Virus record (IMG/VR): IMGVR_UViG_2541047847_000005
DNA: 38,375 nucleotides
From: a virus
Lineage: Duplodnaviria; Heunggongvirae; Uroviricota; Caudoviricetes
Direction: 5' to 3' (one strand)
The position numbers and the translations under genes are program-made. Positions within the stretch are counted from its first letter, which is position 1. Every line of letters begins with the position of its first letter. The notes under the pieces were generated by a model. That model was not told the DNA's origin and searched no databases. It saw only the letters and a list, made by a program, of their open reading frames with translations. Of this stretch, positions 1,094 through 37,919 are shown one piece after another.

Positions 1094-1423
1094 ATGTCTC
1101 ATCGCCGCTCAACCGTTAAAGGCTCACTCTCTTTTGCCAACCCTACGGTTCGCGCCTGGTTATTCCAGATCCTTGCCGTTGTTGCTGTTGTCGGCATTAT
1201 TGGTTGGTTATTTCACAACACTGTAACGAATCTCAGTAATCGCGGCATAACATCAGGATTTGCTTTTCTTGACCGCGGGGCCGGTTTTGGCATCGTTCAG
1301 CATTTGATTGATTATCAGCAAGGCGACACTTACGGACGCGTTTTTATTGTCGGCCTGCTCAATACGCTACTGGTTTCTGCATTGTGTATTGTGTTCGCTT
1401 CTGTTTTGGGCTTCTTTATCTGA
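1094..1423 (+). pseudogene. yhdX: 5-prime fragment of amino-acid ABC transporter permease (YhdX/AapQ-like), truncated by prophage insertion
   Basis: ATG at 1094 preceded by GAGG; hydrophobic permease-like N-terminus; frame runs into TGA at 1421..1423 after only about 110 codons, and downstream sequence is phage-like. Confidence 0.6.
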
Positions 1424-1430
1424 TCAGACA

Positions 1431-1463
1431 TGAGATAAATGAAGGGGGATCCGTGAGATAAAT
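1431..1463 (+). repeat. two direct copies of TGAGATAAAT (1431..1440 and 1454..1463) at the prophage terminus; candidate transposase end-binding sites
   Basis: exact 10-bp direct repeat spaced 23 bp start to start, 10 bp inside the inferred end. Confidence 0.35.
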
Positions 1464-1616
1464 AACGAATTGGAGTGGGTTAACATGGGTTCTGGTGAAC
1501 AGAACTGAAATTCTTTTCCGCTATACGATAGATAAGTCGGGCATTGAAATCATCCTTCCTGGCAACTTAGAATCGAGTTTGCTGAAACATGACCCGCAAC
1601 AAAAAGGATGATTCCA

Positions 1617-1778
1617 ATGACTACTCAAAACAATAAGCATGATAGCCTGGATTACTCAGAAAAGCCCAAAAGCAAGCACATCGTGACGTTCGAGCGCGAT
1701 TCCGGTAGAAAAGGAGAATCGTCTTCCTCTGCCAATAAAACCACTATGCCGGCAGCCCCTGCCCCAGGGAAAAAATAA
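1617..1778 (+). CDS. hypothetical small hydrophilic protein (53 aa), doubtful
   Basis: ATG at 1617 with AAGGA 9 nt upstream; below the ORF-track cutoff; low-complexity Lys/Ser-rich product; convergent with the gene at 1782..2414. Confidence 0.15.
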   Translation: MTTQNNKHDSLDYSEKPKSKHIVTFERDSGRKGESSSSANKTTMPAAPAPGKK

Positions 1779-1781
1779 ACA

Positions 1782-2414
1782 TCATTCATCGTTCGTTGCA
1801 CGAACGCGCCTGATCTCCACTCTGGCAATCTGATCTGCTGGAATATAGGTTGCCAGAGCTCCCCAGTACTTATCAACCACGCCTTTATACTCTTCCCATT
1901 CGTTACTGCCTGAAGGGCTGCTGTGCGTGACGTAAAGAACCATATCGCCTTTATTCCCCAGGGTAAACGGACCGTTAGGCCACTCTTCAAAGTTCCCTGG
2001 CAGCCGTGACATCATACCGGAACCATCGCGAAGAATCACTCTGACCTCGGTAACGCTGAAGCCTGTTTGATCAAACATTGCCTGCCATGCTGAGCTGGTA
2101 TCGTCAGACCATGAAACATCATTATTCCACAGTAATCTGTACATCCATTTGCGACCGTACCTGCGCCACCACGCACCGCATGTAACGGCACACAGAAGTG
2201 CTGGTGGTGTTGCCAGCCAGGCATTCAGACCTGCCCACATAACAGCCTGGTAAGCCATCATTGCTGTCAGGCCAAAAATCAGCGAAGAAAAAGTCACCTC
2301 AATGGGCTTGTGGTGATCCTTCAGTCCCACATTCGCAATAAAATACCCAATATAGCCACTGGTCAGGGTCACCAGTGTTGCCCATGGCAGATTTAACAAC
2401 GAAACGTCAAACAT
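1782..2414 (-). CDS. membrane protein of unknown function (about 3 TM helices plus about 120-aa soluble C-terminal domain); terminal moron candidate
   Basis: ORF 1782..2492; preferred start is the ATG at 2414 (MFDVSLL...) with AGGGAG 5 nt upstream; hydrophobic segments LVTLTSGYIGYFIANVGL, FSSLIFGLTAMMAYQAVMWAGL, ALLCAVTCGAWW; lies after the early-operon terminator. Confidence 0.55.
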   Translation of the reverse strand: MFDVSLLNLPWATLVTLTSGYIGYFIANVGLKDHHKPIEVTFSSLIFGLTAMMAYQAVMWAGLNAWLATPPALLCAVTCGAWWRRYGRKWMYRLLWNNDVSWSDDTSSAWQAMFDQTGFSVTEVRVILRDGSGMMSRLPGNFEEWPNGPFTLGNKGDMVLYVTHSSPSGSNEWEEYKGVVDKYWGALATYIPADQIARVEIRRVRATNDE

Positions 2415-2452
2415 ATTTTCTCCCTGCATCCTGAATACTAAAGAGAGAGCAT

Positions 2453-2488
2453 AAAAAAAGCACGGTAAGGGGTCTACCGTGCTTTTAT
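2453..2488 (-). terminator. rho-independent terminator ending the early operon
   Basis: stem GCACGGTA / TACCGTGC with 7-nt loop (2460..2482); on the minus-strand transcript it is followed by TTTTTTTAT; on the plus strand by TTTTAT, so possibly bidirectional. Confidence 0.7.
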
Positions 2489-2528
2489 ACAATAAGGAGA
2501 TTTTTGAAAGGACTTTAACAAGCAGGAA

Positions 2529-2927
2529 TTATCTGGATTTGTTAACGTCTTTCGTCTCCTCTGGCAGATCTTCATCAAACAACCTGCCCTGCATCCGATC
2601 CAGTTCTTCTTTTCTGACCCGCTTAACCACGCTGTAGACCCACTGAAGCGAAACACCAAACTTGCGGGCCAGTTCGTGGTGGTTGCGTCCGTTAAACTCC
2701 CTGAAGATTTCCCGGTCGCGCTGACTGACCTTCCATACCATGCCCATCGGGAAATAAACGTTTTGCCCGCCCCAGACCTGCATCATTCGGTTCGCGACGG
2801 CCTGACCAATCTGGTCGGCAATTGCGGGCTCAATATCAATAATCTCGCGAACGGTCTCAGAGGTATGCTGTGCCAGCTCCACCAGGAGTTCCGGCCCTTT
2901 ACTTCGAAACTGATTCAGGTCGCTCAT
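2529..2927 (-). CDS. mor: Mor/C-family transcriptional activator of middle/late genes
   Basis: 132 aa; C-terminal motif FNGRNHHELARKFGVSLQWVYSVVKR matches the Mor/C family helix-turn-helix; last gene of the early operon. Confidence 0.7.
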   Translation of the reverse strand: MSDLNQFRSKGPELLVELAQHTSETVREIIDIEPAIADQIGQAVANRMMQVWGGQNVYFPMGMVWKVSQRDREIFREFNGRNHHELARKFGVSLQWVYSVVKRVRKEELDRMQGRLFDEDLPEETKDVNKSR

Positions 2928-3348
2928 GTTTTACTCCCGCAGCTCTGTGCTGCCACTTCTTCAGTTTCTCAATAACACTGCTTGCCTGTTCAGTATTGAG
3001 CCAGCGCAGGGCGCTGATGCCCGTTTCCCGCTTGATCCACCGCGCTAATGCATTTTCTGAACGGTCACGAACAATGCCGGCAGCAGCCATTTCAAGCCAT
3101 AGCGCACGAATTTTCCTGGACTGCGGATGGTTATCCAGCGGTAAACCGGAGCTGGCTTTTCTGGCTGGTTTAACGCGAAAGCCTTTCTTTTTCATGGATT
3201 CCAGCACGCAGTTTAGTTGTGTGGTATCCATTCCTTTGGTTGAGGCTTTACCGGTCAGCCCCTGTAACATCTGGCGGTAGGTGTCTTCATCCATACCCAG
3301 TTCATTACGGGCAATATGGATAAGCTGTATCAGGCGTTTTTTCTGCAT
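2899..3348 (-). CDS. gemA: GemA-like protein (Mu gp16 family)
   Basis: 149 aa; N-terminal QLIHIARNELGMDEDTYRQML motif typical of GemA; AGGAG 5 nt upstream of ATG; overlaps mor by 29 bp. Confidence 0.6.
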   Translation of the reverse strand: MQKKRLIQLIHIARNELGMDEDTYRQMLQGLTGKASTKGMDTTQLNCVLESMKKKGFRVKPARKASSGLPLDNHPQSRKIRALWLEMAAAGIVRDRSENALARWIKRETGISALRWLNTEQASSVIEKLKKWQHRAAGVKHERPESVSK

Positions 3349-3349
3349 A

Positions 3350-3556
3350 TCATCTCCTTTTTTTCAGTCTGTCGGCAACAATGTCGGTTGCAGCTGGCAG
3401 GGTGACTGGCCAGAACAACATGACGGCGGTCATGTACAGGATGTAATGCGCGGTGTCGTAGTGCCTGCCATAGCCCAGGGAACGATGAAGTCTTGCGCTG
3501 CATGATCCTGCGTACATATACCAGAAAAGAAAACAGACAATGGTTTCAGTAGTCAT
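3350..3556 (-). CDS. small membrane protein, hypothetical
   Basis: ORF 3350..3712, preferred start ATG at 3556 (MTTETIV...) with GGGGAGG upstream; hydrophobic. Confidence 0.4.
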   Translation of the reverse strand: MTTETIVCFLFWYMYAGSCSARLHRSLGYGRHYDTAHYILYMTAVMLFWPVTLPAATDIVADRLKKRR

Positions 3557-3776
3557 TCTGAATACCTCCCCATTCGATATGAATATTACGGGCAGCAATG
3601 ACAGGGTCGTTATTCCACCATGCACCTGACATGTATTTTTCAACCTGTTCGCGTCCGGCAATAACACCAATTGTGATCCCCGGCCTGACGTTCTTAAAAA
3701 AGGCGCGGGCAAAAAGGTATCTGGCAGATATTCGGCAGGCTTTTAATTTCCGGCTGTTACCTGATAGCGTAATCAT
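3546..3776 (-). CDS. hypothetical early protein (76 aa)
   Basis: ATG overlaps stop of the upstream gene (ATGA coupling at 3773..3776). Confidence 0.4.
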   Translation of the reverse strand: MITLSGNSRKLKACRISARYLFARAFFKNVRPGITIGVIAGREQVEKYMSGAWWNNDPVIAARNIHIEWGGIQNDY

Positions 3777-4456
3777 CTGGCCTCCAGTTTCTGTTGTTCC
3801 TGCCCACTGACCGGGCGGTGCAGTCTGACGTTCTGCCCTTCACGAAACCCCGCATAGCGCGAGGCGTCGCCATTGCGGCTTCTTCCCGGTTTACGCGCCC
3901 TGGTGGTTTGCGTCTGCGGGTATTTATGTTCCAGCCACTGTTGCATCAGTTCACGCTCATCATCGGTCAGGGCAAAGGACTGTATTTCACTGATAACGGC
4001 CAGTACCCAGCCTTCAGCAAACTGGTCTCCACGGCTGGTACGGGTGGCGTTTTTTATTCTTTTGTTCTGTGCGCTGATATACTGCTGACGCGCCTTTTTC
4101 AGCTGGCGGACCAGCACTTCCCAGGTGTACGCAGCCAGTGCCGCTCGTTCCCGGTTACCGTAGAACCCCACAGACGGATGCGTGCCGGGGTGAATGATGG
4201 AGTTAACACCAAATGCCTCGCGGATGATGTTCATCAGGCCCAGCATGTAGCGCGGTGGACGGAGACTGCCTGTCGGCCAGTAATGACTGATGGTTTCATC
4301 AATATCACTCATAGCAATGTCGGAATGTGTGATGCCGTGAACATCCATCAGTTTACGGGCTCGGCGCAGTGCCAGAGCGGCCTCGTGCGGGTTGCCGGAT
4401 GCGGCCAGCGCCAGCAACTTTTTCAGTTTCTCAATGTGTTTATTCTGGTCTGTCAT
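3773..4456 (-). CDS. hypothetical early protein with DUF2786-like N-terminus
   Basis: ORF 3773..4492, preferred start ATG at 4456 (MTDQNKHIEKLKKLLALAASGNPHEAALAL...) with GGAGA upstream; ATGA coupling with upstream gene. Confidence 0.5.
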   Translation of the reverse strand: MTDQNKHIEKLKKLLALAASGNPHEAALALRRARKLMDVHGITHSDIAMSDIDETISHYWPTGSLRPPRYMLGLMNIIREAFGVNSIIHPGTHPSVGFYGNRERAALAAYTWEVLVRQLKKARQQYISAQNKRIKNATRTSRGDQFAEGWVLAVISEIQSFALTDDERELMQQWLEHKYPQTQTTRARKPGRSRNGDASRYAGFREGQNVRLHRPVSGQEQQKLEAR

Positions 4457-4668
4457 TGTTCTGTATCTCCGGTATTTTTCTGCCGTTTCCATGCCCGGAC
4501 AGCGTCGGACAGCTCTTTCAGGCTGTATGCTGCTTTAAGCTTTTCCCATAACCACTGTGTTGTTATGTGCATCAGCAGGGCAGCCAGGGCTGCCCCCGCA
4601 CTGAGGCATGTCGCCAGGCCAGTAAGAATCAGTGTCCATGCGGTGATTTCCCTGAGTATGTCAGCCAT
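4453..4668 (-). CDS. small membrane protein (71 aa)
   Basis: GGGAGG upstream of ATG at 4668; one long hydrophobic segment. Confidence 0.4.
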   Translation of the reverse strand: MADILREITAWTLILTGLATCLSAGAALAALLMHITTQWLWEKLKAAYSLKELSDAVRAWKRQKNTGDTEQ

Positions 4669-4682
4669 TGAATGCCTCCCGG

Positions 4683-4979
4683 TTACTCGTTCGTGTAAAT
4701 CACGCCCAGTCGTGCAGCCAGACGTTCCAGTTTTTTCTGTTTGTGGAAGTCAATCAGCCGGTCCATCCCCTGAAGGCGCAGTTGCTCTGTCATGATTTCC
4801 ACGTCTGCCAGCTCTGCCGCGAGGTCACTTTCGCTGCCCTGTCCGTTCAGATTGCGGGCAGCACTGGCCGCCAGTTCAGCGGCCTCTTCTGTCAGTTTCA
4901 GGGCCTGTGCGTCCGGCCCGAAACGCTGCAGGGCCAGACGGTAGAGGGCGGTGCGGGTGAGTTCGGTGTTTCGTGTCAT
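4683..4979 (-). CDS. MazG-like nucleotide pyrophosphohydrolase-domain protein (tentative)
   Basis: 98 aa; EEAAEL ... AELADVEIM pattern resembles the EExxE...ExxD metal-binding motif of MazG-type NTP pyrophosphatases. Confidence 0.4.
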   Translation of the reverse strand: MTRNTELTRTALYRLALQRFGPDAQALKLTEEAAELAASAARNLNGQGSESDLAAELADVEIMTEQLRLQGMDRLIDFHKQKKLERLAARLGVIYTNE

Positions 4980-4988
4980 GCCGCGCCC

Positions 4989-5261
4989 TCAGTGCTTCCG
5001 GCTGACGGTGATGTGCAGGCCGCCTTCTGCAGTGGTTTCCATCCGGTACGGCACCTCATGCTCTGCCGTGTGGGTGAGTGTGTTCATCAGTACCTGCAGG
5101 GCAGCCTCCTTTCCGTTGGTCGCCACAATGGCCTGTGTGGCCATGCTGATTAGCGCCGTCAGGACGTGCTTCACATCGGTGAGGTCGCGGCATTCACACT
5201 CGTTGACATAGTGTTCAACAAGAGTTCGGGTGCGCTGTCGTGCTTCCTGTGGGGTAATCAT
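4989..5261 (-). CDS. hypothetical early protein (90 aa)
   Basis: AGGGAGG upstream of ATG at 5261; 4-bp overlap with next gene. Confidence 0.4.
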   Translation of the reverse strand: MITPQEARQRTRTLVEHYVNECECRDLTDVKHVLTALISMATQAIVATNGKEAALQVLMNTLTHTAEHEVPYRMETTAEGGLHITVSRKH

Positions 5262-5452
5262 TGCGCGTCCTCCCTGTCAGGGCGGGAGAATTCTATGACG
5301 GGCACGTCCGCCGAAAAATGCTGGCTGCAGTACGGGCAGACCAGGGTGACACGTACTGCAGGTATGTGATACTTACCGGACATCACGGCGATGGCGCTGT
5401 GAAAACGCAGGGCTGTTATATCCCTCTCGCACTGAATACATTTAAATATCAT
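5258..5452 (-). CDS. small zinc-ribbon protein (CxxC ... CxxC)
   Basis: 64 aa with CIQC and CPYC pairs; GAGGAG upstream. Confidence 0.4.
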   Translation of the reverse strand: MIFKCIQCERDITALRFHSAIAVMSGKYHIPAVRVTLVCPYCSQHFSADVPVIEFSRPDREDAQ

Positions 5453-5549
5453 AATTTAATTCTCCTCTGTTTCCGGCGTGCAGAAGCCCGCGGCGCTGAC
5501 GCCGGAATAAAAAAGAAAATGTTTTTATTAAATAATTAACGTGGTGTGT

Positions 5550-6080
5550 TTACTGCACATCCTGCTCAAAAGGAATTATTGAAAAATCCTCAATATCACT
5601 TTTTATGGTAATACCGGGAATATTTTTCACAGCCTCTTTTTCATTCAGAATGGCATCTTTATTTATTTCCTCCTTTACACGAATAAAGCGCTCAAGCCCC
5701 AGACGTCTCAGTAATTCAATAACATTATCCGCCCCGCGAATGCTGACTGACGGCGGACGGTTTCGCCACTGCACCTCGCCGGTGGTGAGGTTAGCGAACT
5801 TCACCTTCCCGTTGCCGGTCAGTTCATCACGGTGCGCCTCACACCATGTCTGGATACCGGACTGCAGTTCGGCCATGCGTTTTTTCAGGCTCTCGGTGAG
5901 CGGGGCATAACGTGCAGTGATGTCGCCAATGGTGTCATTCATTTCTGTTTCAGCCCTGACCAGTTCACGTTGCGCGTCACCAAGCAGTCTGATTCCCTCA
6001 ATGACCTCTTCGCGTGTCCCCGGCACCCAGAGTGCTGCTGCGGCTTTGATACGTTTTGCCCCTTTTGTACTTTTTGCCAT
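5550..6080 (-). CDS. gam: Gam-like host-nuclease inhibitor (Ku-like DNA-end binding protein)
   Basis: 176 aa; colinear with Mu Gam as recalled (RIKAAAALWVP, LVRAETEMNDTIGDIT, WCEAHRDELT, VKSDIEDFSIIPFEQ). Confidence 0.85.
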   Translation of the reverse strand: MAKSTKGAKRIKAAAALWVPGTREEVIEGIRLLGDAQRELVRAETEMNDTIGDITARYAPLTESLKKRMAELQSGIQTWCEAHRDELTGNGKVKFANLTTGEVQWRNRPPSVSIRGADNVIELLRRLGLERFIRVKEEINKDAILNEKEAVKNIPGITIKSDIEDFSIIPFEQDVQ

Positions 6081-6107
6081 ATTTTATGACTCCTCCTGTT
6101 GTGCTGA

Positions 6108-6377
6108 TTACCACAAAGATTCCGGCCACACGACGCGACAGCCGTGCAGTTCGAAAACGCCCTGACGGAAATGTCCCCTGTGGTCATGACCGGTATACAG
6201 ATAACAGGCCTTTCCCTGCTCAAGCATGCGCATGCAATGCGCACTCCGGGAAACGCGGATGACAGGTTTGTTACCCCTGATGGTGATGCTTTGTACATCC
6301 GTGTTCGTCGCCTTAAGCGCCATAATGGCTGACTGCACTTTGCTGATTTGCTGGTTGATACCTGTGGTGGATTTCAT
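6108..6377 (-). CDS. hypothetical early protein (89 aa) in the position of Mu kil
   Basis: starts 2 nt after the stop of the B-like gene; AGGGG upstream. Confidence 0.4.
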   Translation of the reverse strand: MKSTTGINQQISKVQSAIMALKATNTDVQSITIRGNKPVIRVSRSAHCMRMLEQGKACYLYTGHDHRGHFRQGVFELHGCRVVWPESLW

Positions 6378-6379
6378 TA

Positions 6380-7546
6380 TTAAACCCCTTTGACAACGTC
6401 AGCGTTGACCTGTGGAACCCCGATTTCAGCGGCCAGATTCATGGCGGCTATTACCAGGTTACTGACGGCCAGCGGATACAGCAGGCTGACCATATTTTTA
6501 CGATGACTTCCCGGATTGCTCAGGCGGGCACGTATGGCATCCACTGCGCTGGCGTCCATAATGTCCGTCAGTTGTTTACCGGCCCGTTGCAGTTTGAACG
6601 TCAGAAACTCTTCAAGGTTATTGTCCAGAGGCAGAAGTTCGACCACCTCACAGCGCTGAACGACTTCACGGACTTCCATATTGCGTTCAGACAGTTTTGT
6701 CGCCAGTTCCGGCTGGCCAATCAGCACGATGGACAGCAGTTTTTTGAAACCGGACTCCAGCTCAAAAAAGCGTTTGAGGTGTTTCAGTGTCGGAATGGGC
6801 AGACTGTGGGCCTCCTCAATCACCAGAACGTGGCTGAACCCCGCCTGGCTGCTGTCTTTCAGGACGCGATGCAACTGGCGAAAGCGGGCGTCCTGACTGC
6901 GTCTGATGCTTTCCAGTGGTGCGATGGTACTGATAATGGCTTCGGCAATCGCTGCTGCCTTCAGGGTTTTCCCTTTCACATCGTTGTCTTCCATAGCGAT
7001 GATGTATGGCTCGATAACAATTACCGGCGCATTCTCGCGGTTGATACGTTCAGTCAGGTCGCGGCGCAGCGTGGATTTACCCGCACCGGACTCACCGATG
7101 ACGGCCATAAACCCACCATGACGGGCTGTCTGGTACAACGCCTCACGCACGTAGCGAATATCCGGGGTGGTGAACACATCATCAGAACCCTGCATGGCTT
7201 CGTCGGCGAACGGGTCACGGAAAAGACCAAACGCTTTTTTGGTTGCTGGAAATAACACCTGTTTTTTGAGTAACATATTCTCTTCCTCACTGAGGCTCGT
7301 TTTATCTGTGGTACCCGCTGTACGGGGCGTGGCCGCGCCCTGTACAGCATCAAAACTCTTCGTTGTATCAATCCCCTGACTTTCCAGCCAGGACGCAAGA
7401 CGCCGGCGCACTTCTCCGGGGCTGGTGCGGGGCCACGCGTTATGATTCACAATCTGGGCCAGCGTGGCCTCAGAAACATCGACAGCTCTCGCCACCACCG
7501 CCTGTGGAATACGGGCCTCTTTCAGTTGCTGCTTCAGTACCAGCAT
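6380..7546 (-). CDS. AAA+ transposition helper ATPase (MuB-like target DNA activator)
   Basis: ORF 6380..7585, preferred start ATG at 7546 with GGAGGGAAA upstream; Walker A GESGAGKST; Walker B-like HVLVIEEAH; immediately downstream of the transposase. Confidence 0.8.
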   Translation of the reverse strand: MLVLKQQLKEARIPQAVVARAVDVSEATLAQIVNHNAWPRTSPGEVRRRLASWLESQGIDTTKSFDAVQGAATPRTAGTTDKTSLSEEENMLLKKQVLFPATKKAFGLFRDPFADEAMQGSDDVFTTPDIRYVREALYQTARHGGFMAVIGESGAGKSTLRRDLTERINRENAPVIVIEPYIIAMEDNDVKGKTLKAAAIAEAIISTIAPLESIRRSQDARFRQLHRVLKDSSQAGFSHVLVIEEAHSLPIPTLKHLKRFFELESGFKKLLSIVLIGQPELATKLSERNMEVREVVQRCEVVELLPLDNNLEEFLTFKLQRAGKQLTDIMDASAVDAIRARLSNPGSHRKNMVSLLYPLAVSNLVIAAMNLAAEIGVPQVNADVVKGV

Positions 7547-7556
7547 GTTTCCCTCC

Positions 7557-9326
7557 TCAGTTGCCGTTAACAATGCTGATAACACTGCTGCTGGCCGGTG
7601 TGGTCAGCGTGGCCATGACTTCATCCAGTGCGGCTTCCGGTACGCCGTCCGGGTACTGTGCCGTTAACTGGCGGTAATGTTCCGGCGTCCAGGTAAGGCC
7701 GTCGGCGCTGAACTTATCGCGCAGGGCTTTCGCGGCCTCCACATGAGTCATGGGACGTTGTTCAGTGCGCGGCCCGCGTACGTCAGAGGCCTGACCACGC
7801 TTCGGCATATAGGCCGGAAGTGTGGTGTCGTCGATATGTTTATACGGGTCAAGCCGCCCGCCGAACGGCAGCGCCTTCGCCTTGCGTGCGGCGGCTGCAT
7901 CTGCGGCGTTGTCTGTACCGGTAACCAGCGCTTCAGTTTCTTTTGCCGCCATCTGTGCCGGGGTTTCCGGCAGGGCTTTGTAACTTTCGCCAAATACCGC
8001 CGCGCCTTCAGCAAAGCCAAACTCGTTCTTTCTGACCTCTTCGACCAGGAAGAACGTCTCGTGGCCGTCCTCACCGGTCAGAACCACCTGTGCCACATCG
8101 CTGCGCCATGGGTTACGGGTAATCATCAGTTTTTCACCAACCAGTACGCCCGGTACCGTTGATACGTCAAATTCAGTGCCCCGGAACGAGACACGAAGTT
8201 TTGGCGTGACTTTGCGGAGTTCTGGTGCCGCCACAGCCAGTTCACGACATACCTCAACGGAAGGCGCTTTTTTCAGCTGCTCAGCAGTAATCTTCAGCCA
8301 GATATCCGTGCGGGTTTTACCGTGGCGGCTGTGAACAGCCGTGGCGTTAAAGTGGCTGCGCCATTTCGCGGCCAGCGCGTTGAGTTCTTCCAGACTGTGA
8401 ACCGGCCGGAACTTCAGACCCGGCTCCAGCTTGCGTTCGATAATGTCCCGCGCCTTTTCCACCTGTCCGGTGGCGCGGGCGTTATGCGGCTTGTGCGCTA
8501 TCAGGTCAATGCCCAGTGAGCGGCACATGTTTTTCGTCATACCCGCGGTGTTTGCCGAGCCGGGGTCGAGATAGAGTATTTTTGGCACGCCGTGCAGCAC
8601 GTCTGCGCCGCCACGCTCCTGCATGGCGTTGATAAGCACAGAACACAGGTTCTCACCGGATTCCGCACCCGTCACATACTCAACGTAAATCCAGCCGCTG
8701 GCATGGTCGGTAATCTCATAACTCCACACGCGGTCACTGGCGATACGGGCAAGGTTAGCGGGCTTGTTCTTGTAGAATTTCGCGCTGTCCATCACCTGCA
8801 GCCCTTTGTGTCCATTGCTCAGGTAGTAAAGCGTGCAGAGCGAGGCATCAATCTGCCAGACGTGATTGGGATGCAGACTGGCCACTTCGGTATGCGGCGC
8901 AGGGGCATCCAGTTGTTCCGGGTGCAGGCCATAGTTACGCAGGGCACGGCTGATGGCATCTTCGGACAACGGGAAAAACTCACCGGTGGTTTCATCTGTT
9001 CTGCCTGCGGAGATAAAGCCGTTAGCCCGCAGGGTTTCCACTGCATCTGCGATGGAATAGAGACGCTTACCGTTCTTGCGGGTGGCCTCACGCAGTGTGG
9101 CAGATATCAGCGCGGCTTCGTCGCGGGTCAGGGCGCTGCGCCCGGCATCGGCGCGTTTTTTGCGTTTATCAGTCACAGAGACCTCCTTCAGCCTGCGCAG
9201 CAGAGTGGCGCGGGACATGCCAAGTTCAGCACAGGCAGCGTCGTATATTGCACCGCGTTTACCATGCCCCGCGTCACGTGCCGCGCGGGCGACATAAACC
9301 AGTCGTTCAGTCAGGGCAGCATTCAT
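7557..9326 (-). CDS. DDE transposase (Mu A-like, integrase-core fold)
   Basis: 589 aa; N-terminal HTH region; candidate DDE residues in WQIDAS, LYLDPGSAN and GQVEKARDIIE; GGAGG upstream. Confidence 0.85.
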   Translation of the reverse strand: MNAALTERLVYVARAARDAGHGKRGAIYDAACAELGMSRATLLRRLKEVSVTDKRKKRADAGRSALTRDEAALISATLREATRKNGKRLYSIADAVETLRANGFISAGRTDETTGEFFPLSEDAISRALRNYGLHPEQLDAPAPHTEVASLHPNHVWQIDASLCTLYYLSNGHKGLQVMDSAKFYKNKPANLARIASDRVWSYEITDHASGWIYVEYVTGAESGENLCSVLINAMQERGGADVLHGVPKILYLDPGSANTAGMTKNMCRSLGIDLIAHKPHNARATGQVEKARDIIERKLEPGLKFRPVHSLEELNALAAKWRSHFNATAVHSRHGKTRTDIWLKITAEQLKKAPSVEVCRELAVAAPELRKVTPKLRVSFRGTEFDVSTVPGVLVGEKLMITRNPWRSDVAQVVLTGEDGHETFFLVEEVRKNEFGFAEGAAVFGESYKALPETPAQMAAKETEALVTGTDNAADAAAARKAKALPFGGRLDPYKHIDDTTLPAYMPKRGQASDVRGPRTEQRPMTHVEAAKALRDKFSADGLTWTPEHYRQLTAQYPDGVPEAALDEVMATLTTPASSSVISIVNGN

Positions 9327-9329
9327 TGG

Positions 9330-10241
9330 TTATGCCTCCAGCCCGTTAATCTGTGGCGTCGGCTCAGTCAGCCATGAAGGCGCGGCATTGCCTGTTGGCT
9401 CATCCGGCAGGTCAAATGTGGAGCGCAGGCTACGCGCTGTGCTTTCCAGTTGACAGACCAGGCCTGCCATGAAGTCTCTGGGGGTATCAATCATGTTTTC
9501 AGCACAATATGCGCACAGCGTCTCAAAAGCGCTGGACAGTCGAACGGCGATGGCAGATTCCGCCTCAACCGCTAACGCGGTCACTTCTGCCCGCAGTTTC
9601 TTCACCTCTTCATCAGGCTCAGGTGGCTGAATACGGGATTTCTTCTCCAGTCTGGTGGAGAGTGAGTCTATTTTTTCATTTTTGTCGGCGAGTACGCGCT
9701 GTTGTGCTGCGTTGGTTTCGCGCGCTTCGCGCAGGGCCTGACGCAATTCACGTACTGACATGCGATCAACATCGTCAAGCGTCAGTCCGGCAACTGTGCC
9801 ACCGTCGGCCAGTTCAGCAAGGTCGTCGTCATCTTCAGCAACAAGTTCAAATAATTTTGCCTTACCTAAAAGCGACAACGTTGTCGCTTTTGGCTCTAGT
9901 TTTGGTGAAAGGTATTTCAAAGATGCTTTCATCATTCGTTGTGCTGCGCGCACATGCAGACCAAGTTGTTCTTCTACAATTCCAACAAAGTCCCCGTGAG
10001 GTTCATTTTCTTTGAGAATAATAAGTCGTTTACCTGCTTCCAGCATGGCCTCAGCGCTCTGTGCCATATAAAACCGAGCCTCATGAACTATGCGATCACG
10101 CTCATAGGGCTGACCATCGCCAAACTGCTGCATGATCTCCATACGATGCTGTGTCATGGCGTTCAGACTGACATTGAGATCATCCGACAGCGGTACCTCG
10201 GCGTTCAGTTCAGTGTTAATCGGTGATTTGGTGCGTCCCAT
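9330..10241 (-). CDS. hypothetical early protein (303 aa), acidic and coiled-coil rich
   Basis: AAGGAG 6 nt upstream of ATG at 10241; lies between the regulators and the transposase. Confidence 0.5.
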   Translation of the reverse strand: MGRTKSPINTELNAEVPLSDDLNVSLNAMTQHRMEIMQQFGDGQPYERDRIVHEARFYMAQSAEAMLEAGKRLIILKENEPHGDFVGIVEEQLGLHVRAAQRMMKASLKYLSPKLEPKATTLSLLGKAKLFELVAEDDDDLAELADGGTVAGLTLDDVDRMSVRELRQALREARETNAAQQRVLADKNEKIDSLSTRLEKKSRIQPPEPDEEVKKLRAEVTALAVEAESAIAVRLSSAFETLCAYCAENMIDTPRDFMAGLVCQLESTARSLRSTFDLPDEPTGNAAPSWLTEPTPQINGLEA

Positions 10242-10251
10242 TTATTACTCC

Positions 10252-10560
10252 TTACAAACGACTACCTGAAATGACACGTTGGTTGATTTCGTTAATGCGA
10301 TCCTGTGCACGTGCCATCTCGTTACTGTGGGCCATAGCGATCTGCAGTAACTGGATGCCCGGCGCGAAACGCCCGTTTTCCAGTTTCAGGGCCAACCCTT
10401 CTTCAATGAGGGTGTTGAGTGCCCGGTTGATGTTTGCCGGTGACTCGTGCAGTGCTGCCGCCAGTTCACCGTTGGAAATACCGTTCAGGGCATGACCGCG
10501 CAGCGCTTTGAGTACCCGGAGGATGCGACTGCCGGAGCTTGAAACATTCGTCTTACTCAT
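10252..10560 (-). CDS. winged-helix DNA-binding protein (putative early regulator)
   Basis: ORF 10252..10566, preferred start ATG at 10560; segment ILRVLKAL...ISNGELAAALHESPANINRALNTLIEEGLA looks like a wHTH. Confidence 0.45.
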   Translation of the reverse strand: MSKTNVSSSGSRILRVLKALRGHALNGISNGELAAALHESPANINRALNTLIEEGLALKLENGRFAPGIQLLQIAMAHSNEMARAQDRINEINQRVISGSRL

Positions 10561-10612
10561 CTGCATACCTCTTTTGCGATATGTGATAACCTTTTACAAA
10601 GACTCAAAATCT

Positions 10613-10801
10613 TCAGGCTGCCTGAGCTGTTGATTTCAGCCCCAACTTCACGGCGATTTCATGGGATTTACCGTAACGGGCTTTGGTCTGCCCATTGAGA
10701 ACGCGGTATACCTCATTGCGGTTGTAGCCGTTTTCTTCTGCCCAGCGGGTGAAAGTGATCCCGCGCTGGCGGAAGAGAGCTTTGACTTGTTCTGCAGTCA
10801 T
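10613..10801 (-). CDS. ner: Ner-like DNA-binding protein (Ner/Nlp family), first gene of early operon
   Basis: 62 aa; pattern ALFRQRGITFTRWAEENGY...LNGQ...G..IA..LG resembles Mu Ner / E. coli Nlp; AGGAG 6 nt upstream of ATG at 10801. Confidence 0.7.
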   Translation of the reverse strand: MTAEQVKALFRQRGITFTRWAEENGYNRNEVYRVLNGQTKARYGKSHEIAVKLGLKSTAQAA

Positions 10802-10901
10802 CGTTGTCTCCTTTGTTGATGCAATGATGTTTGCCTTATGTGTGATAGATTATGGTGCAGATTACCTCACCAGTCAACTTAAAGAGTGCAGAAAAACTCA
10901 C
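10802..10901. promoter_or_regulatory. divergent promoter/operator region between ner-like and repressor genes
   Basis: 100-bp AT-rich gap between divergent regulator genes; contains three GTGCAGA / TGCAATGA-like repeats. Confidence 0.4.
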
Positions 10902-11240
10902 ATGATCGGGTTACGTATTAAAGAAGAAAGAGAGCGTCTATCTCTTACACAGCAAGGGTTGGCTGATGCTATAGGTGTGGCAAAGAGAACTTTCATTGAT
11001 TGGGAAAAAGATCGCACTTCTCCTACTGCAGTGCAGTTATCTGCACTATCAGAAATCGGTGTAGATATTTTGTATGTAGTTACTGGGGTGCGGAGTCAGC
11101 CTGTTGTTGCACCTTATGTGTCACAAGAAAAGAAAGAGTTAATGGATGCATTCGACGAAATGAGCCCCGAACAACGGAGGGCAATTCTTGAGGTCGGCAA
11201 AGTCTTCATTCAACCCAAACCAAGCAAACTCGCAGGCTGA
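10902..11240 (+). CDS. XRE-family HTH repressor (prophage immunity repressor)
   Basis: ORF 10749..11240, preferred start ATG at 10902; N-terminal LRIKEERERLSLTQQGLADAIGVAKRTFIDWEKDRTSP is a Cro/C1-type HTH; no LexA-like peptidase domain; low GC. Confidence 0.7.
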   Translation: MIGLRIKEERERLSLTQQGLADAIGVAKRTFIDWEKDRTSPTAVQLSALSEIGVDILYVVTGVRSQPVVAPYVSQEKKELMDAFDEMSPEQRRAILEVGKVFIQPKPSKLAG

Positions 11241-11326
11241 TTTTGACCTGGACACAAAGGACAGGTGGTTGATCTGGATGCTTTCAGAAAACATCGCCAG
11301 TGACATAGTGGAAGTTGTTTGGTTTA

Positions 11327-11357
11327 CCGGAAAGCATTGTGCTTTCCGGTTTTGTTT
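11327..11357 (+). terminator. rho-independent terminator downstream of repressor gene
   Basis: perfect 10-bp stem CCGGAAAGCA / TGCTTTCCGG with 3-nt loop followed by TTTTGTTT; abuts the stop codon of the convergent methyltransferase gene. Confidence 0.6.
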
Positions 11358-12121
11358 CAGAAGTTGCAGATTACCAGTTCACGGCGCGGCGTGGATTTCC
11401 CCGCCAGACTGTAGTTGATGTTCACTGTCTGTATGTTCAGTCCAGTGAACACCTCGCGCATCTGTGGGATATCGTTCACCGAAATTATCATTTTTCCTCT
11501 GATGCACCGGGCCAGCTCTGCCAGCCGCGAGTAGTTCCCTTCAGGAAAATCCACACCATAGCCTTCCGTACCCAGGTACGGTGGGTCGCAGTAGAACAGT
11601 GTGTGCGGACGATCATAACGCTCAATGCACTGTTGCCAGTCCATGTGTTCTATGACTGTTCTGGAAAGCCGCAGGTGTGCTGCTGACAGTTCTTCTTCAA
11701 TACGCAGCAGGTTGAAGCGTGGCGGGGATGTGGTGGAGGTACCGAAGCTGTGCTCTGCCACCTTGCCGCCAAACGCCTGCTTCTGAAGGTAGTAGAACCG
11801 TGCCGCACGCTGGATATCCGTCAGTGTTTCTTCCGGGGTGATCTGCAGCCATTTGTAGATCTGACGGCTGACCAGCGCCCATTTGAACTGGCGGACAAAT
11901 TCTTCCAGGTGATGCTTTACCACCCGGTACAGATTCACCAGTTCACCGTTGATATCATTGATGACTTCGATCTTGCCGGGTGTCTTAAGAAAATAGAGCG
12001 CTGCTGCCCCACAAAACGGCTCCACATAACATTCATGCGCCGGAAACAGCGGCAGGATGTGTTTTGCCAGGCGACGTTTGCCACCAATCCATGGAACGAT
12101 GGGTAATGTCTTCATTTTCAT
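11357..12121 (-). CDS. orphan Dam-class (D12) N6-adenine DNA methyltransferase
   Basis: 254 aa; motif I FCGAAALYF and motif IV DPPY; no adjacent restriction endonuclease gene. Confidence 0.85.
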   Translation of the reverse strand: MKMKTLPIVPWIGGKRRLAKHILPLFPAHECYVEPFCGAAALYFLKTPGKIEVINDINGELVNLYRVVKHHLEEFVRQFKWALVSRQIYKWLQITPEETLTDIQRAARFYYLQKQAFGGKVAEHSFGTSTTSPPRFNLLRIEEELSAAHLRLSRTVIEHMDWQQCIERYDRPHTLFYCDPPYLGTEGYGVDFPEGNYSRLAELARCIRGKMIISVNDIPQMREVFTGLNIQTVNINYSLAGKSTPRRELVICNF

Positions 12122-12312
12122 AATCTGTAAGCCTTTTACAATTATTAAAAATATGGCAGGCTAGTCTGGTCTCGCGAGACTGACTGAACCTCGGTCGGCT
12201 CACAGCCACTTCTGTGGGACGATGGCCAGCCCGGTGGGTCCGAAGCACCGGGCTGGTCGTTCTTTCATGATGCGGCAGGGATAGTGGGATTTCTGTTAAT
12301 GTGGTTTAGGGA

Positions 12313-12528
12313 TTATCCGGGGCGATTTTCTGACCTTATCCGGTCCAGGGCATAAGTAATACCTTCTGCAAAAACAGAAGTATCAAACTGCTTTTGTATT
12401 CCCTGAAAATGAAAAGCGGCACGACAGACACTCAGTTCTCCGCGATGTAACCGGATAATATCTTCCAGAACATTGTTCACTGCTTCAGCACGGCGCTGAT
12501 GTTCTGTTAACGTTAATCGGGGATTCAT
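12313..12528 (-). CDS. hypothetical small protein (71 aa)
   Basis: ATG at 12528 with AAGGAG 6 nt upstream; about 190 bp upstream of the methyltransferase gene. Confidence 0.5.
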   Translation of the reverse strand: MNPRLTLTEHQRRAEAVNNVLEDIIRLHRGELSVCRAAFHFQGIQKQFDTSVFAEGITYALDRIRSENRPG

Positions 12529-12529
12529 G

Positions 12530-12931
12530 ATGCACTCCTTAAATGATGATTTTTATGCACTCACCGGCAAAATATTCTGCCGATTACTGAACACGCATCC
12601 GGCACCTCAGGTTTTGATTTATTCTGGTTTTTTCGATATCCCGGACCAGGTTGATCACGACCAGAAAAAGTGCCGGTATTTTATTGATACGCTGATATGG
12701 CTTCGGGATAACAGCTATATTCGTTACTCTCAGTTGCTGGCTGTGGGAGCGGCTGATGTCGTCCTCACGGAAAAAACGCTCCGTCTGCTCAATGCCACGC
12801 CGACCCTTCTGCAGCCCCGGCCCGCACCATTTAAAGAGTCACTTCTGGATGCAGTAAAAACCGGTGAAAATGCAGTCATCGCTGAATGCGTATCCCGGAT
12901 TATGCGTTACGTGTTTAATGAACGTAAGTGA
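12530..12931 (+). CDS. hypothetical protein (about 133 aa)
   Basis: ORF 12527..12931; about 400 bp open on plus strand with no competing ORF; ATG at 12530 has GGGGA 6 nt upstream; start overlaps the start of the divergent 71-aa gene. Confidence 0.4.
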   Translation: MHSLNDDFYALTGKIFCRLLNTHPAPQVLIYSGFFDIPDQVDHDQKKCRYFIDTLIWLRDNSYIRYSQLLAVGAADVVLTEKTLRLLNATPTLLQPRPAPFKESLLDAVKTGENAVIAECVSRIMRYVFNERK

Positions 12932-13650
12932 GGTTTATCCGCTGTCTGCATAATCCCGATAGCCAGTGCGAGGGGAAGTAATTCCGGGGAAACTCTTTCA
13001 AACAGCGACTCCCATTCTCCTCTCGCCATCACTCTGTCCAGCCCGCCCCCCAGTTGCATTTCAGCAATCTTCCTGATTTCCCGGAACAACGCCGCTTTGA
13101 TCTCTTCGTGCTCAGCTTTATTTTCCGGTGTCAGAATGTATTCGTCGAAGAACCGGGGAGGCTGGTTAACGGGGAGCGTGTTCACCGGGATGTGTTCCTG
13201 TTTCCCGTACTTCGGGGCAGAAAAACATTCTGTTGGCTGACCGGTGAGTTTACGTAGCTCCTTCATGAGCAGCTCCTGATCGTAAACTGTCATCAGTGCC
13301 GCAATGGTGGCATGCAGTGCATCGGGCAGTATCCAGGGTTGCCGGCCCGTGGGGCATATAACATCCAGCAGCTCATTCGTCCGACAGATACGCTCCTCGC
13401 CGTATGACAACAGGCCCTGTCCCGTGTATTCCTCTAGCCTGATCACTGTGCCACCCCGTGGCTTCTGCCAGGTCGTCAGATCTTCGCCATTCATACGGCG
13501 CTCATTCTCCACGTCAGCAGCATCGACAATGACGCTGTTTCCGAGTTCCTGTTTCACCATCTCTTCTATCCGCGCCAGTACGTAACTTTTACCGCTGCCC
13601 ACAGGACCGGACACAGTGACAGTGATGACCGGATTCAGTGTGTGCGTCAT
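12907..13650 (-). CDS. P-loop NTPase/kinase-like protein of unknown function
   Basis: 247 aa; Walker A GPVGSGKS at residues 15-22; GAGGAG 8 nt upstream of ATG; not a recognisable Mu core gene. Confidence 0.6.
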   Translation of the reverse strand: MTHTLNPVITVTVSGPVGSGKSYVLARIEEMVKQELGNSVIVDAADVENERRMNGEDLTTWQKPRGGTVIRLEEYTGQGLLSYGEERICRTNELLDVICPTGRQPWILPDALHATIAALMTVYDQELLMKELRKLTGQPTECFSAPKYGKQEHIPVNTLPVNQPPRFFDEYILTPENKAEHEEIKAALFREIRKIAEMQLGGGLDRVMARGEWESLFERVSPELLPLALAIGIMQTADKPHLRSLNT

Positions 13651-13780
13651 ATCGTATTCTCCTCTGTGAATAATTCATCGTTTATCCTGCACATCCCGTA
13701 TCCCCGGCTCTCTTAACGCGCTTTAAAATCCTTCGCGCCCTGTATTTGTGATGCTGTCTCCACCAGACAAGGAGACACAC

Positions 13781-20969: not shown

Positions 20970-21183
20970 GTTTTCTCTCTTCAGGCGGGTGATTTATCAT
21001 TGCCAGCGAATGAGGGGCTGTATTACCTTTATAAAGGCTTTACAGCCTCTGTTTTATAACCGCCTCCGGTTCACCGCATTGCTTTCCCTGTCCTTCTCCC
21101 CTGATGTTTTCTAAAGCAGATTAAAATCGCCGGGCCTGCATTTCTCACAAACTGTCTCCGACAACATAACGCGGGACAGCAAA
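20970..21183 (+). promoter_or_regulatory. intergenic region upstream of the I-like gene; candidate late promoter
   Basis: 214-bp non-coding gap inside the otherwise tightly packed late region; two small hairpins followed by T-rich runs. Confidence 0.3.
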
Positions 21184-27000: not shown

Positions 27001-27097
27001 CATCACAGGGGCTCCGGCCCCTTCTTCTTAATCTCCTTTAATATCCGTCACGCGCTTCTCCCGACATACTGCCCTGAACTTACACAGGAGCACAATC

Positions 27098-33634: not shown

Positions 33635-33688
33635 GCTTTTTAAACGCCTTTAATATCAGCGTTCCCGCACGGGGGCAATACTGCCCCC

Positions 33689-37913: not shown

Positions 37914-37919
37914 ACGGTA

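What the first reader, a model, noticed from the sequence alone, without database searches (positions are those of the whole stretch)
2453..10901. Early operon runs toward the genome end and finishes with a single Mor-type activator
In canonical Mu the repressor lies next to the left end and the early genes (ner, A, B ... gam, gemA, mor) are transcribed away from it. Here the same gene series is on the minus strand, starting in the middle of the element and terminating about 1 kb from the left end, with repressor, accessory island and late genes diverging to the right. As far as I recall this resembles the BcepMu-type arrangement rather than Mu. Only one Mor/C-family activator is present in the window, suggesting a simplified early-to-late cascade.
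Basis: partly seen in the sequence, partly recalled or inferred. Interest (0 to 1): 0.4.

Follow-up and report, generated by a model that had tools for sequence, protein, structure and literature searches.

The report
BcepMu-type prophage early operon, one Mor
This is the leftward-reading early (transposition and regulation) operon of a BcepMu-type transposable prophage common in E. coli; the layout and the single Mor activator are already documented for this phage group, so the finding is correct but ordinary.

Summary
Seventeen tightly packed minus-strand genes run from a sigma-70-like promoter (10877-10849) to a strong terminator (2486-2456) just after mor. The terminator lies about 1.0 kb from the prophage left end (1421). 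The order is Ner-like, wHTH, DUF3102, rve transposase, AAA ATPase, Gam, small ORFs, DUF2786, GemA, Mor.

The element is colinear with Burkholderia phage BcepMu and Pseudomonas phage B3. It is 99% identical to prophages in about 100 complete E. coli genomes and 96% identical to phage PhiKM (genus Bcepmuvirus). The literature already describes this two-cluster layout.

The transposase and ATPase are not MuA/MuB homologues; only Mor, GemA and Gam match Mu.

A Mor+C profile finds one gene in the window and one in a complete relative, against two in Mu.

New detail: a dyad TTAA-N6-TTAA, nearly identical to the Mu Pm Mor box, sits 31 nt upstream of a -10-like hexamer before the lysis, head, tail and baseplate operons and before dam. 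That geometry centres it at -43.5. The sites are conserved in KP12 and mostly in BcepMu. This supports a two-tier cascade with direct Mor activation, which is inferred, not shown.

Verdict: already known; low interest.

The parts
1421..1463 (.). Prophage left end (TGATCAG...) with two direct TGAGATAAAT repeats, 23 bp apart; candidate transposase-binding sites
   Evidence: Three-way alignment of independent insertions; repeats; the same repeat type occurs inverted at the right end of relative L002
2456..2486 (-). Intrinsic terminator ending the early operon (13-bp stem, T7 tail)
   Evidence: sequence
2529..2927 (-). mor: the only Mor/C-family activator, last gene of the early operon
   Evidence: Pfam PF08765 E 1e-43; family motifs conserved in alignment A1; single copy
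2899..3348 (-). gemA (gp16 family)
   Evidence: Pfam PF06252 E 1e-40
3350..5452 (-). Eight semi-essential-type early ORFs: 3350-3556, 3546-3776, DUF2786/DUF7168 3773-4456, 4453-4668, NTP-pyrophosphohydrolase-like 4683-4979, 4989-5261, 5258-5452
5550..6080 (-). gam (host-nuclease inhibitor), 62% identical to Mu Gam
   Evidence: Pfam E 1e-40; tblastn
6108..6377 (-). Small conserved ORF (phrog_2041)
6380..7546 (-). ExeA/AAA_22 ATPase; functional analogue of MuB, not a homologue
   Evidence: Pfam; 59% to BcepMu gp08, no hit in Mu
7557..9326 (-). rve (DDE) transposase of the BcepMu gp09 / B3 ORF12 type
   Evidence: Pfam rve; 69% to BcepMu gp09, no hit to MuA
9330..10241 (-). DUF3102 protein
10252..10560 (-). 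IclR/MarR-like winged-helix regulator
10613..10801 (-). Ner/Cro-like HTH protein, first gene of the early operon
   Evidence: 71% to B3 ORF17, 46% to BcepMu gp16
10849..10877 (-). Candidate early promoter Pe (TTGACT-17-CATAAT, 10 of 12 matches)
10855..10901 (.). Two 16-nt direct repeats GTGCAGAnnAMCTCAC (10855-10870 inside the Pe spacer; 10886-10901); candidate operators
10902..11240 (+). XRE-type repressor, divergent from Pe
12267..12309 (-). Candidate Mor-dependent promoter Pdam: dyad CTAA-N6-TTAA 12309-12296, -10 CATCAT 12272-12267
   Evidence: a box is present in 14 of 15 relatives with otherwise unrelated flanks
11357..12259 (-). Structured leader of about 140 nt (12259-12122) plus dam methylase gene (12121-11357)
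   Evidence: Pfam and PADLOC methyltransferase hits; fold z -4.4; covariation
13713..13755 (+). Candidate late promoter Plys: dyad TTAAcgcgctTTAA 13713-13726, -10 GATGCT 13750-13755, upstream of holin 13781
   Evidence: conserved in KP12 and BcepMu
21111..21153 (+). Candidate late promoter PI: dyad CTAAagcagaTTAA, -10 CAAACT 21148-21153, upstream of protease/scaffold gene 21184
27028..27070 (+). Candidate late promoter Ptail: dyad TTAAtctcctTTAA, -10 CATACT 27065-27070, directly after terminator 27007-27022 and upstream of tail gene 27098
33640..33682 (+). Candidate late promoter PW: dyad TTAAacgcctTTAA, -10 AATACT 33677-33682, upstream of gpW-like baseplate gene 33689

Best explanation
The region is the early operon of a BcepMu-type (Bcepmuvirus-like) transposable prophage. 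The prophage is inserted in a yhdX-like permease gene.

Proposed course of events. When the XRE repressor (10902-11240) leaves its operators, host sigma-70 RNA polymerase starts at Pe (about 10842). It transcribes leftward through the Ner-like regulator, the wHTH protein, DUF3102, the rve transposase, its AAA ATPase partner, Gam, accessory ORFs, GemA and finally Mor. It stops at the terminator 2486-2456, before the left-end cargo and the transposase-binding end.

Mor is made last from this roughly 8.4-kb transcript, so it acts as a delay timer. It then binds TTAA-N6-TTAA dyads centred at -43.5 in place of a -35 element. In this way it directly switches on five promoters: dam, lysis plus head, head plus sheath/tube, tail, and baseplate plus fibres. 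There is no C-type second activator, so the cascade has two tiers instead of Mu's three.

Shown: gene identities, order and strand, single copy of Mor/C, colinearity with BcepMu and B3, and the presence, enrichment, positions and conservation of the dyads.

Inferred: the promoter and terminator are used, Mor binds the dyads, and activation is direct.
For: Identity and layout. Pfam hits. Colinear protein matches to BcepMu and B3 on the same strands. 99% identity over 1421-12200 to prophages in 102 complete E. coli genomes at other insertion sites, and 96% to phage PhiKM, genus Bcepmuvirus.

Operon limits. Promoter and terminator. In BcepMu itself, microarray data show co-induction of gp16 through gp1 with a 10-fold to 1.9-fold gradient (PMC2830190).

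Single activator..

Mor boxes in the window. The exact dyad TTAA-N6-TTAA occurs 3 times in 38 kb against 0.28 expected, with 0 of 100 shuffles reaching 3. All three are intergenic and upstream of plus-strand late genes. With at most one mismatch and a NANNNT hexamer at +31 there are 8 hits against 0.61 expected (0 of 300 shuffles).

Mor boxes in BcepMu. Four hits against 0.06 expected, all upstream of plus-strand genes: gp19, the holin, the protease/scaffold gene and the baseplate gene.

Positive control. The same rule picks out the Mu Pm region, GTAAagccggTTAA + TATCCT. That numbering reproduces the published -57G and -54A, and the published 5+6+5 dyad at -51 to -36 (PMC4390567, PMC4287176).

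Conservation. The dyad and -10 are conserved while the spacers diverge, in KP12 and in IMG/VR relatives.

No alternative promoters. The plus strand of 13.6-33.6 kb has no sigma-70-like promoter with 10 of 12 matches or better. Terminators precede PI and Ptail.
Against: There are no transcript or binding data for this element.

The dyad rule was derived from these same sequences. The window statistics are therefore partly circular; Mu Pm is the only fully independent check.

The -10 hexamers are weak, with 3-4 of 6 matches.

The predicted start of PW coincides with the ATG of the gpW-like gene. That means either a leaderless mRNA or a promoter that serves the downstream genes.

BcepMu lacks a clean box before its tail-assembly genes. 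B3, whose Mor is 29% identical, has no hit with this rule.

Several early ORFs and the wHTH protein have unknown roles and could add a regulatory tier.
Confidence: 0.7

Rival explanations
1. A three-tier cascade is retained. Mor activates only a subset of promoters, or an unrecognised middle gene. A second activator outside the Mor/C family, for example the IclR-like wHTH protein, the DUF2786 protein or another early ORF, then turns on the late operons.
For: Nine early ORFs have no assigned function. The wHTH regulator is conserved in BcepMu and B3.
Against: The same Pm-like dyad at the same distance from a -10 hexamer precedes every late unit. No second shared motif was seen. All candidate regulators lie in the early transcript, so none is positioned as a 'middle' gene behind a Mor box.
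Confidence: 0.15
2. The TTAA-N6-TTAA elements are not Mor sites. They would be AT-rich promoter or UP-like elements, or sites for a host protein. Late expression would then come from read-through or from weak constitutive promoters relieved by loss of the repressor.
For: The motif is short and AT-rich in a GC-rich late region. The rule was found post hoc.
Against: The motif is enriched more than ten-fold over dinucleotide shuffles. Four of the five proposed promoter dyads sit at offset 31 from a NANNNT hexamer on the strand of the downstream gene; the fifth, PI, fits with one mismatch in the dyad. The BcepMu late-promoter box matches the experimentally defined Mu Pm Mor box at 14 of 16 positions. 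Terminators directly upstream of PI and Ptail argue against read-through.
Confidence: 0.12
3. The inverted early region is a local rearrangement or assembly artefact of a canonical Mu-like prophage in this one genome.
For: None beyond the unusual appearance relative to Mu.
Against: The same arrangement is present in 102 complete E. coli genomes, and in PhiKM, KP12, BcepMu, phiE255 and B3. The transposase is not MuA.
Confidence: 0.01

Closest known systems
Burkholderia phage BcepMu (AY539836; genus Bcepmuvirus) and phiE255
   Same: Mor as the leftmost gene on the bottom strand, followed by GemA, ExeA-type ATPase, rve transposase, DUF3102, wHTH and a Ner-like gene. A divergent XRE repressor. Then holin, SLT endolysin and Rz, Mu-like head genes and P2-like tail genes on the top strand. 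A single Mor/C gene. The same dyad boxes before the holin, protease/scaffold and gpW genes.
   Different: Protein identity is 34-69%. The E. coli element adds about 1 kb of cargo between mor and the left end. It also has Mu-type Gam, dam with a structured leader, and an invertible tail-fibre segment with invertase; PMC2771037 states that BcepMu has no inversion system. It lacks the BcepMu SSB, HU and acyltransferase genes.
Escherichia phage PhiKM (PQ738613), Klebsiella phage KP12 (OM835952) and prophages in about 100 complete E. coli genomes (for example SK1144)
   Same: Essentially the same element: 96%, 86% and 99% nucleotide identity over the early region, with the same gene order.
   Different: Different insertion sites. 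PhiKM and KP12 differ downstream of mor and in the immunity and accessory region. The tail-fibre segment lies in the opposite orientation to SK1144.
Pseudomonas phage B3 (Beetrevirus)
   Same: The same leftward early operon ending in GemA and Mor at the left end, and a single Mor. Transposase 57%, ATPase 55%, Ner-like 71%, Dam 63% identical.
   Different: B3 is a siphovirus. Its Mor is only 29% identical and it has no TTAA-N6-TTAA sites under my rule. Its dam lies in the late region behind a Com-like gene.
Escherichia phage Mu (Muvirus)
   Same: Replicative-transposition lifestyle. Gam (62%), GemA (36%) and Mor (31%) are homologous. Mor is the last early gene, followed by a terminator. The activator dyad is centred at -43.5, and the Pm box GTAA-AGCCGG-TTAA is almost the same sequence.
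   Different: In Mu the repressor is next to the left end and early genes read inward. MuA and MuB are unrelated to the transposase and ATPase here. Mu has Mor plus C and a middle operon.

Membership tests
BcepMu-type transposable phages (Bcepmuvirus-like) | Two-cluster layout: regulators, transposase and small genes on the bottom strand ending at the left end; repressor at the interface; lysis, head and tail genes on the top strand | tested here: met
   layout described in PMC2771037
BcepMu-type transposable phages (Bcepmuvirus-like) | Tn552/IS1604-like rve transposase plus ExeA-type ATPase instead of MuA and MuB | tested here: met
   Pfam rve and AAA_22; 69% and 59% identity to BcepMu gp09 and gp08; no hit in Mu
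BcepMu-type transposable phages (Bcepmuvirus-like) | P2-like tail module and Mu-like head and terminase genes | tested here: met
   RefSeq and GenBank annotation of near-identical relatives: gpD, V, W, J, I, X, sheath, tube; DUF935 portal; Mu F and G homologues. Not rescored by me.
BcepMu-type transposable phages (Bcepmuvirus-like) | Transposon-like ends (TG...CA), insertion at many sites, short target duplication | tested here: met
   Ends TGAT...ATCA and a 6-bp TCGAGA duplication in SK1144. Three different insertion sites. The window's own right end lies outside the window.
BcepMu-type transposable phages (Bcepmuvirus-like) | [quoted passage not shown] | not testable with these tools
   Needs virion DNA sequencing
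Mor/C family transcription activators | Match to PF08765, with the GG-x-x-x-Y-x-P linker and a C-terminal HTH | tested here: met
   E 1e-43 over the full profile; invariant G54, P60, G80, N82, Y98, R105 in alignment A1
Mor/C family transcription activators | Target promoters lack a -35 element and carry a 16-bp imperfect dyad centred at -43.5 | tested here: inconclusive
   Dyads with the right geometry were found and are enriched. No start-site or binding data exist.
Muvirus (phage Mu proper) | MuA/MuB transposition proteins; c repressor adjacent to the left end; early genes read inward | tested here: not met
Muvirus (phage Mu proper) | Two paralogous activators, Mor and C, with a middle operon | tested here: not met
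   One hit in the window and in the complete relative against two in Mu

The most novel reading that the evidence does not exclude
One Mor-type protein directly drives all late transcription in BcepMu-type phages. It acts through boxes nearly identical to the Mu Pm Mor box (GTAA/CTAA/TTAA-N6-TTAA at -43.5). Its targets include a late dam gene whose roughly 140-nt structured leader sequesters the ribosome-binding site. That leader would be a Com-less counterpart of Mu mom control. On this reading the two-tier cascade is ancestral, and Mu's C with its distinct late boxes is a later duplication and re-specification.
Probability: 0.5. Interest if true: 0.35.

Novelty: already known. Interest (0 to 1): 0.15.

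Why it matters
The finding mainly serves correct annotation. This common E. coli prophage should be read as a BcepMu/B3-type transposable phage, not as a rearranged Mu, and its 'A' and 'B' genes are analogues of MuA and MuB, not homologues. The useful by-product is a concrete, cheaply testable regulon map: one early promoter, one terminator and five Mor-box promoters. It uses an operator sequence shared with Mu Pm, which makes this element a simple system for studying Mor/C-type activation. It also bears on how Mu's three-stage cascade evolved.

Tried and rejected
**Second Mor/C gene.** I looked with tblastn (E up to 100) and with a Mor+C HMM run with filters off on six-frame ORFs. Targets were the window and a complete relative. 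Nothing scored better than E 0.4.

**Cargo and accessory genes.** I searched for a defence or known function for the left-end cargo (1608-1778, 1782-2414) and the accessory genes (12313-13650). PHROGs gave only families of unknown function. PADLOC gave nothing significant.

**Rfam.** The whole window gave no hit at gathering thresholds.

**Genome of origin.** I tried to find a genome with the same yhdX junction so as to read the window's own right end. No complete E. coli genome covers the junction.

**Mor-type promoter for ORF 1782-2414.** A one-mismatch dyad lies at 2518-2505, between mor and its terminator. Its -10 position falls in the terminator stem and matches only 2 of 6 positions, and the region is not conserved in PhiKM or KP12. 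I treat it as unsupported.

**SD-sequestering hairpins at Plys and PI.** I first read CTGTCTCC...GGAGACA as leader hairpins. Their 5' arms lie upstream of the predicted start sites, so they would form only in read-through RNA. This is left open.

**Literature.** The primary BcepMu (Summer 2004), B3 (Braid 2004) and Pm (Artsimovitch & Howe 1996) papers are not held. I cannot exclude that Mor-box promoters of BcepMu or B3 were already described there.


Full report
**What is in the window**

Bases 1-1420 are host DNA: a periplasmic amino-acid-binding protein gene (1-1026) and the 5' part of a yhdX-like permease gene (1076-1423), which is cut off. From 1421 to the end of the window (38375) everything belongs to a Mu-like prophage.

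The left end is fixed by aligning three independent insertions: the window, E. coli SK1144 (in ssuB) and FORC_031. They become identical exactly at TGATCAGACATGAGATAAATG, which is window 1421.

Two TGAGATAAAT repeats 23 bp apart follow the end. [quoted passage not shown]

The window stops inside the tail-fibre region, so the right end is not present.

**Check of the observation**

Between 2529 and 10801 there are 17 abutting or overlapping ORFs, all on the minus strand. Listed in the direction of transcription:

| ORF | Coordinates | Evidence |
|---|---|---|
| Ner/Cro-like HTH | 10613-10801 | Pfam HTH |
| IclR/MarR-type winged helix | 10252-10560 | Pfam |
| DUF3102 | 9330-10241 | Pfam, just under cut-off |
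| rve transposase | 7557-9326 | Pfam E 1e-8 |
| AAA_22/ExeA ATPase | 6380-7546 | Pfam E 4e-20 |
| Small ORF | 6108-6377 | phrog_2041 |
| Gam | 5550-6080 | Pfam E 1e-40 |
| Four small ORFs, one NTP-pyrophosphohydrolase-like | 4453-5452 | |
| DUF2786/DUF7168 | 3773-4456 | Pfam |
| Two small ORFs | 3350-3776 | |
| GemA | 2899-3348 | Pfam E 1e-40 |
| Mor | 2529-2927 | Pfam E 1e-43, full-length |

A sigma-70-like promoter, TTGACT-17-CATAAT (10 of 12 matches), lies on the minus strand at 10877-10849, just upstream of the Ner-like gene. The best terminator of the region, a 13-bp stem followed by T7, lies at 2486-2456, 43 nt after the mor stop codon.

A 16-nt repeat, GTGCAGAnnAMCTCAC, occurs inside the Pe spacer and again 31 nt away. 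These are candidate operators for the divergent XRE repressor (10902-11240).

**What it is**

The early region is 99% identical over 1421-12200 to prophages in 102 complete E. coli genomes at other chromosomal sites. It is 96% identical to Escherichia phage PhiKM, which GenBank places in Bcepmuvirus, and 86% identical to Klebsiella phage KP12.

The records of BcepMu, phiE255 and Pseudomonas phage B3 show the same map. Mor is the leftmost gene on the bottom strand, followed by GemA, small genes, ATPase, transposase, DUF3102, wHTH and a Ner-like gene. Then comes a divergent repressor, and then lysis, head and tail genes on the top strand.

| Window protein | Identity to BcepMu |
|---|---|
| Mor | 56% |
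| GemA | 43% |
| ATPase | 59% |
| Transposase | 69% |
| DUF3102 | 44% |
| wHTH | 34% |
| Ner-like | 46% |
| Repressor | 36% |
| Holin | 52% |
| SLT endolysin | 61% |

All of these matches are colinear. Against Mu, only Mor (31%; 35% to C), GemA (36%) and Gam (62%) match. The transposase and ATPase give no hit to MuA or MuB. The 'same gene series as Mu' is thus a functional analogy for ner, A and B, not homology.

The layout is in the literature. Lavigne et al. 2009 describe BcepMu as genes 1-13 on the bottom strand and 17-52 on the top strand, with lysogeny control at the interface. They also note a Tn552/IS1604-type transposase and P2-like tails (PMC2771037).

Microarray data for the BcepMu prophage in B. 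cenocepacia J2315 show co-induction of gp16 through gp1. The gradient runs from about 10-fold down to 1.9-fold, as expected for one long leftward transcript (PMC2830190).

**One activator only**

- tblastn with the window Mor gives one hit in the window; the next best has E 0.41.
- It gives one hit in the complete 38.5-kb SK1144 prophage and one in BcepMu.
- Across phage records, Mu, D108 and SfMu have two matching places (Mor and C). BcepMu, phiE255, PhiKM, KP12 and the B3-like phages have one.
- A profile built from Mor, C and relatives (alignment A1) was searched with filters off against all six-frame ORFs. It finds one gene each in the window, SK1144, BcepMu, B3 and KP12, and two in Mu. 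The next hit has E 0.47.
- The part of the prophage beyond the window holds only tail-fibre genes and an invertase.

**How late genes are probably switched on**

The intergenic regions before the holin, the protease/scaffold gene, the tail-assembly gene and the gpW-like gene share a dyad, TTAA-N6-TTAA; it reads CTAA-N6-TTAA before the protease gene.

Enrichment:
- The exact dyad occurs three times in the 38-kb window against 0.28 expected; 0 of 100 shuffles reach 3. The three sites are 13713, 27028 and 33640.
- In each case, and at 21111, a -10-like hexamer lies exactly 31-36 nt after the dyad centre: GATGCT, CAAACT, CATACT and AATACT.
- Allowing one mismatch and requiring NANNNT at that offset gives 8 hits in the prophage against 0.61 +/- 0.86 in 300 dinucleotide shuffles. 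None of the shuffles reaches 8.
- BcepMu gives 4 hits against 0.06 expected. All are on the plus strand, before gp19, the holin, the protease/scaffold gene and gpW.

Fit to the known family geometry. Mu Mor binds two 5-bp inverted repeats separated by a G/C-rich hexanucleotide, centred at -43.5 (-51 to -36). This element replaces the -35 hexamer (PMC4390567, PMC4287176). C binds a 16-bp dyad at the same position (PMC2582627).

Positive control. The rule recovers the Mu Pm region, GTAAagccggTTAA followed by TATCCT. The numbering it implies reproduces the published bases -57G and -54A. The BcepMu boxes, CGTAAAGCCGATTAAA, match that Mu Pm box at 14 of 16 positions.

Conservation. The dyad and the -10 hexamer are kept while the intervening spacer diverges, both in KP12 and in IMG/VR relatives down to 73% protein identity.

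Other observations:
- The plus strand of the late region has no sigma-70-like promoter with 10 of 12 matches or better.
- Terminators lie directly upstream of the PI and Ptail boxes.
- A fifth box lies on the minus strand at 12309-12296, before dam. A box is present in 14 of 15 relatives that share the dam leader, although the flanks and spacers are otherwise unrelated.

Model. Mor is the last product of the early transcript and directly activates five promoters, giving a two-tier cascade. This is inference. No start sites or binding data exist. The rule was derived partly from these same sequences. The -10 hexamers are weak. The predicted PW start coincides with the ATG of the gpW-like gene. 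B3 shows no such sites.

**Comparison and novelty**

The element works like BcepMu and B3 and passes the testable membership criteria for the BcepMu type. It fails those for Muvirus: no MuA or MuB, the repressor is not at the end, and there is no C.

The architecture and the single Mor/C gene are visible in records deposited in 2004 and in published descriptions. The very same prophage is already in RefSeq many times. The finding is therefore already known.

The Mor-box map appears in none of the open papers that a full-text search returned for 'Mor', 'BcepMu' and 'promoter' terms. The primary BcepMu and B3 papers could not be read, so I do not claim it as new.

**Verdict**

Novelty: already known. 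Interest is low (0.15). The most novel reading still open is direct Mor control of all late units plus a translationally gated dam gene, with Mu's C as a derived duplicate.

Noticed in passing
window 12122-12309 (minus strand); relatives L063-L079 and L005 25006-25157: dam is preceded by a conserved leader of about 140 nt. Homology among relatives starts right at the predicted -10/start site. It folds at -57.4 kcal/mol (z -4.4). The RNAalifold consensus has 8 pairs with compensatory changes. A near-invariant helix, CUGUGAGCC/GGCUUACAG, covers the Shine-Dalgarno region. There is no Rfam match and no Com-like ORF. It may be a translational gate on a late methylase, analogous to Mu mom/Com.
   Followed up: partly
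window 36782-38374 versus L002 39346-37754: The distal tail-fibre segment lies in the opposite orientation to the 99.7%-identical SK1144 prophage. That prophage carries a recombinase gene next to it (L002 39927-40499). This is a Mu G-segment-like invertible host-range switch, which published BcepMu is said to lack (PMC2771037).
   Followed up: partly
window 1421-2456: There is about 1 kb of cargo between the mor terminator and the left end. It comprises a 210-aa predicted membrane protein (1782-2414, minus strand, phrog_12870) and a 56-aa ORF (1608-1778, plus strand, phrog_15726). Both are of unknown function with no PADLOC hit. BcepMu has no such genes, and PhiKM and KP12 carry different genes here. 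It is a likely moron or exclusion-gene slot.
   Followed up: partly
window 2505-2518 (minus strand): A one-mismatch Mor-like dyad, TTAAagtcctTTCA, lies between the mor stop codon and the terminator. A transcript started 44 nt downstream would begin inside the terminator hairpin and so escape it, which recalls the overlap of the Mor box with the early terminator in Mu. The -10 match is poor (CACGGT) and the site is not conserved.
   Followed up: partly
window 13756-13780 and 21152-21180: The lysis and head leaders both contain CTGTCTCC paired with GGAGACA or GGGACAG over the ribosome-binding site. The 5' arm lies upstream of the predicted Mor-dependent start. Only read-through RNA would have its RBS occluded.
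   Followed up: no
window 33677-33691; L003 about 30811-30826: At the baseplate promoter the -10 hexamer is followed after 6 nt by the ATG of the gpW-like gene, both here and in BcepMu. The hexamer lies within a small hairpin (GGGGGCAatacTGCCCCC). This implies either a leaderless mRNA or a promoter that serves the downstream genes.
   Followed up: no
window 27123-27136 (plus strand): An extra one-mismatch dyad with CAGAAT at +31 lies inside the tail-assembly gene, 95 nt downstream of Ptail. It is also present in KP12.
   Followed up: no
window 29407-30202: The tape-measure gene (27591-30803) contains tandem repeats of about 261 bp, seen as offset self-matches in blastn and a ladder of 62-aa antisense ORFs. 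The SK1144 copy is annotated as an incomplete pseudogene in this region.
   Followed up: no
L062 (E. coli FORC_031) 2500-5341: A relative in FORC_031 goes from GemA and two small ORFs almost directly to DUF3102. It appears to lack Gam, the ATPase and the transposase, so it is a deletion derivative that can no longer transpose.
   Followed up: no
window 5550-6080: Gam is 62% identical to Mu Gam but has no counterpart in BcepMu or B3 by tblastn. The early region is a mosaic of BcepMu/B3-type and Mu-type modules.
   Followed up: partly
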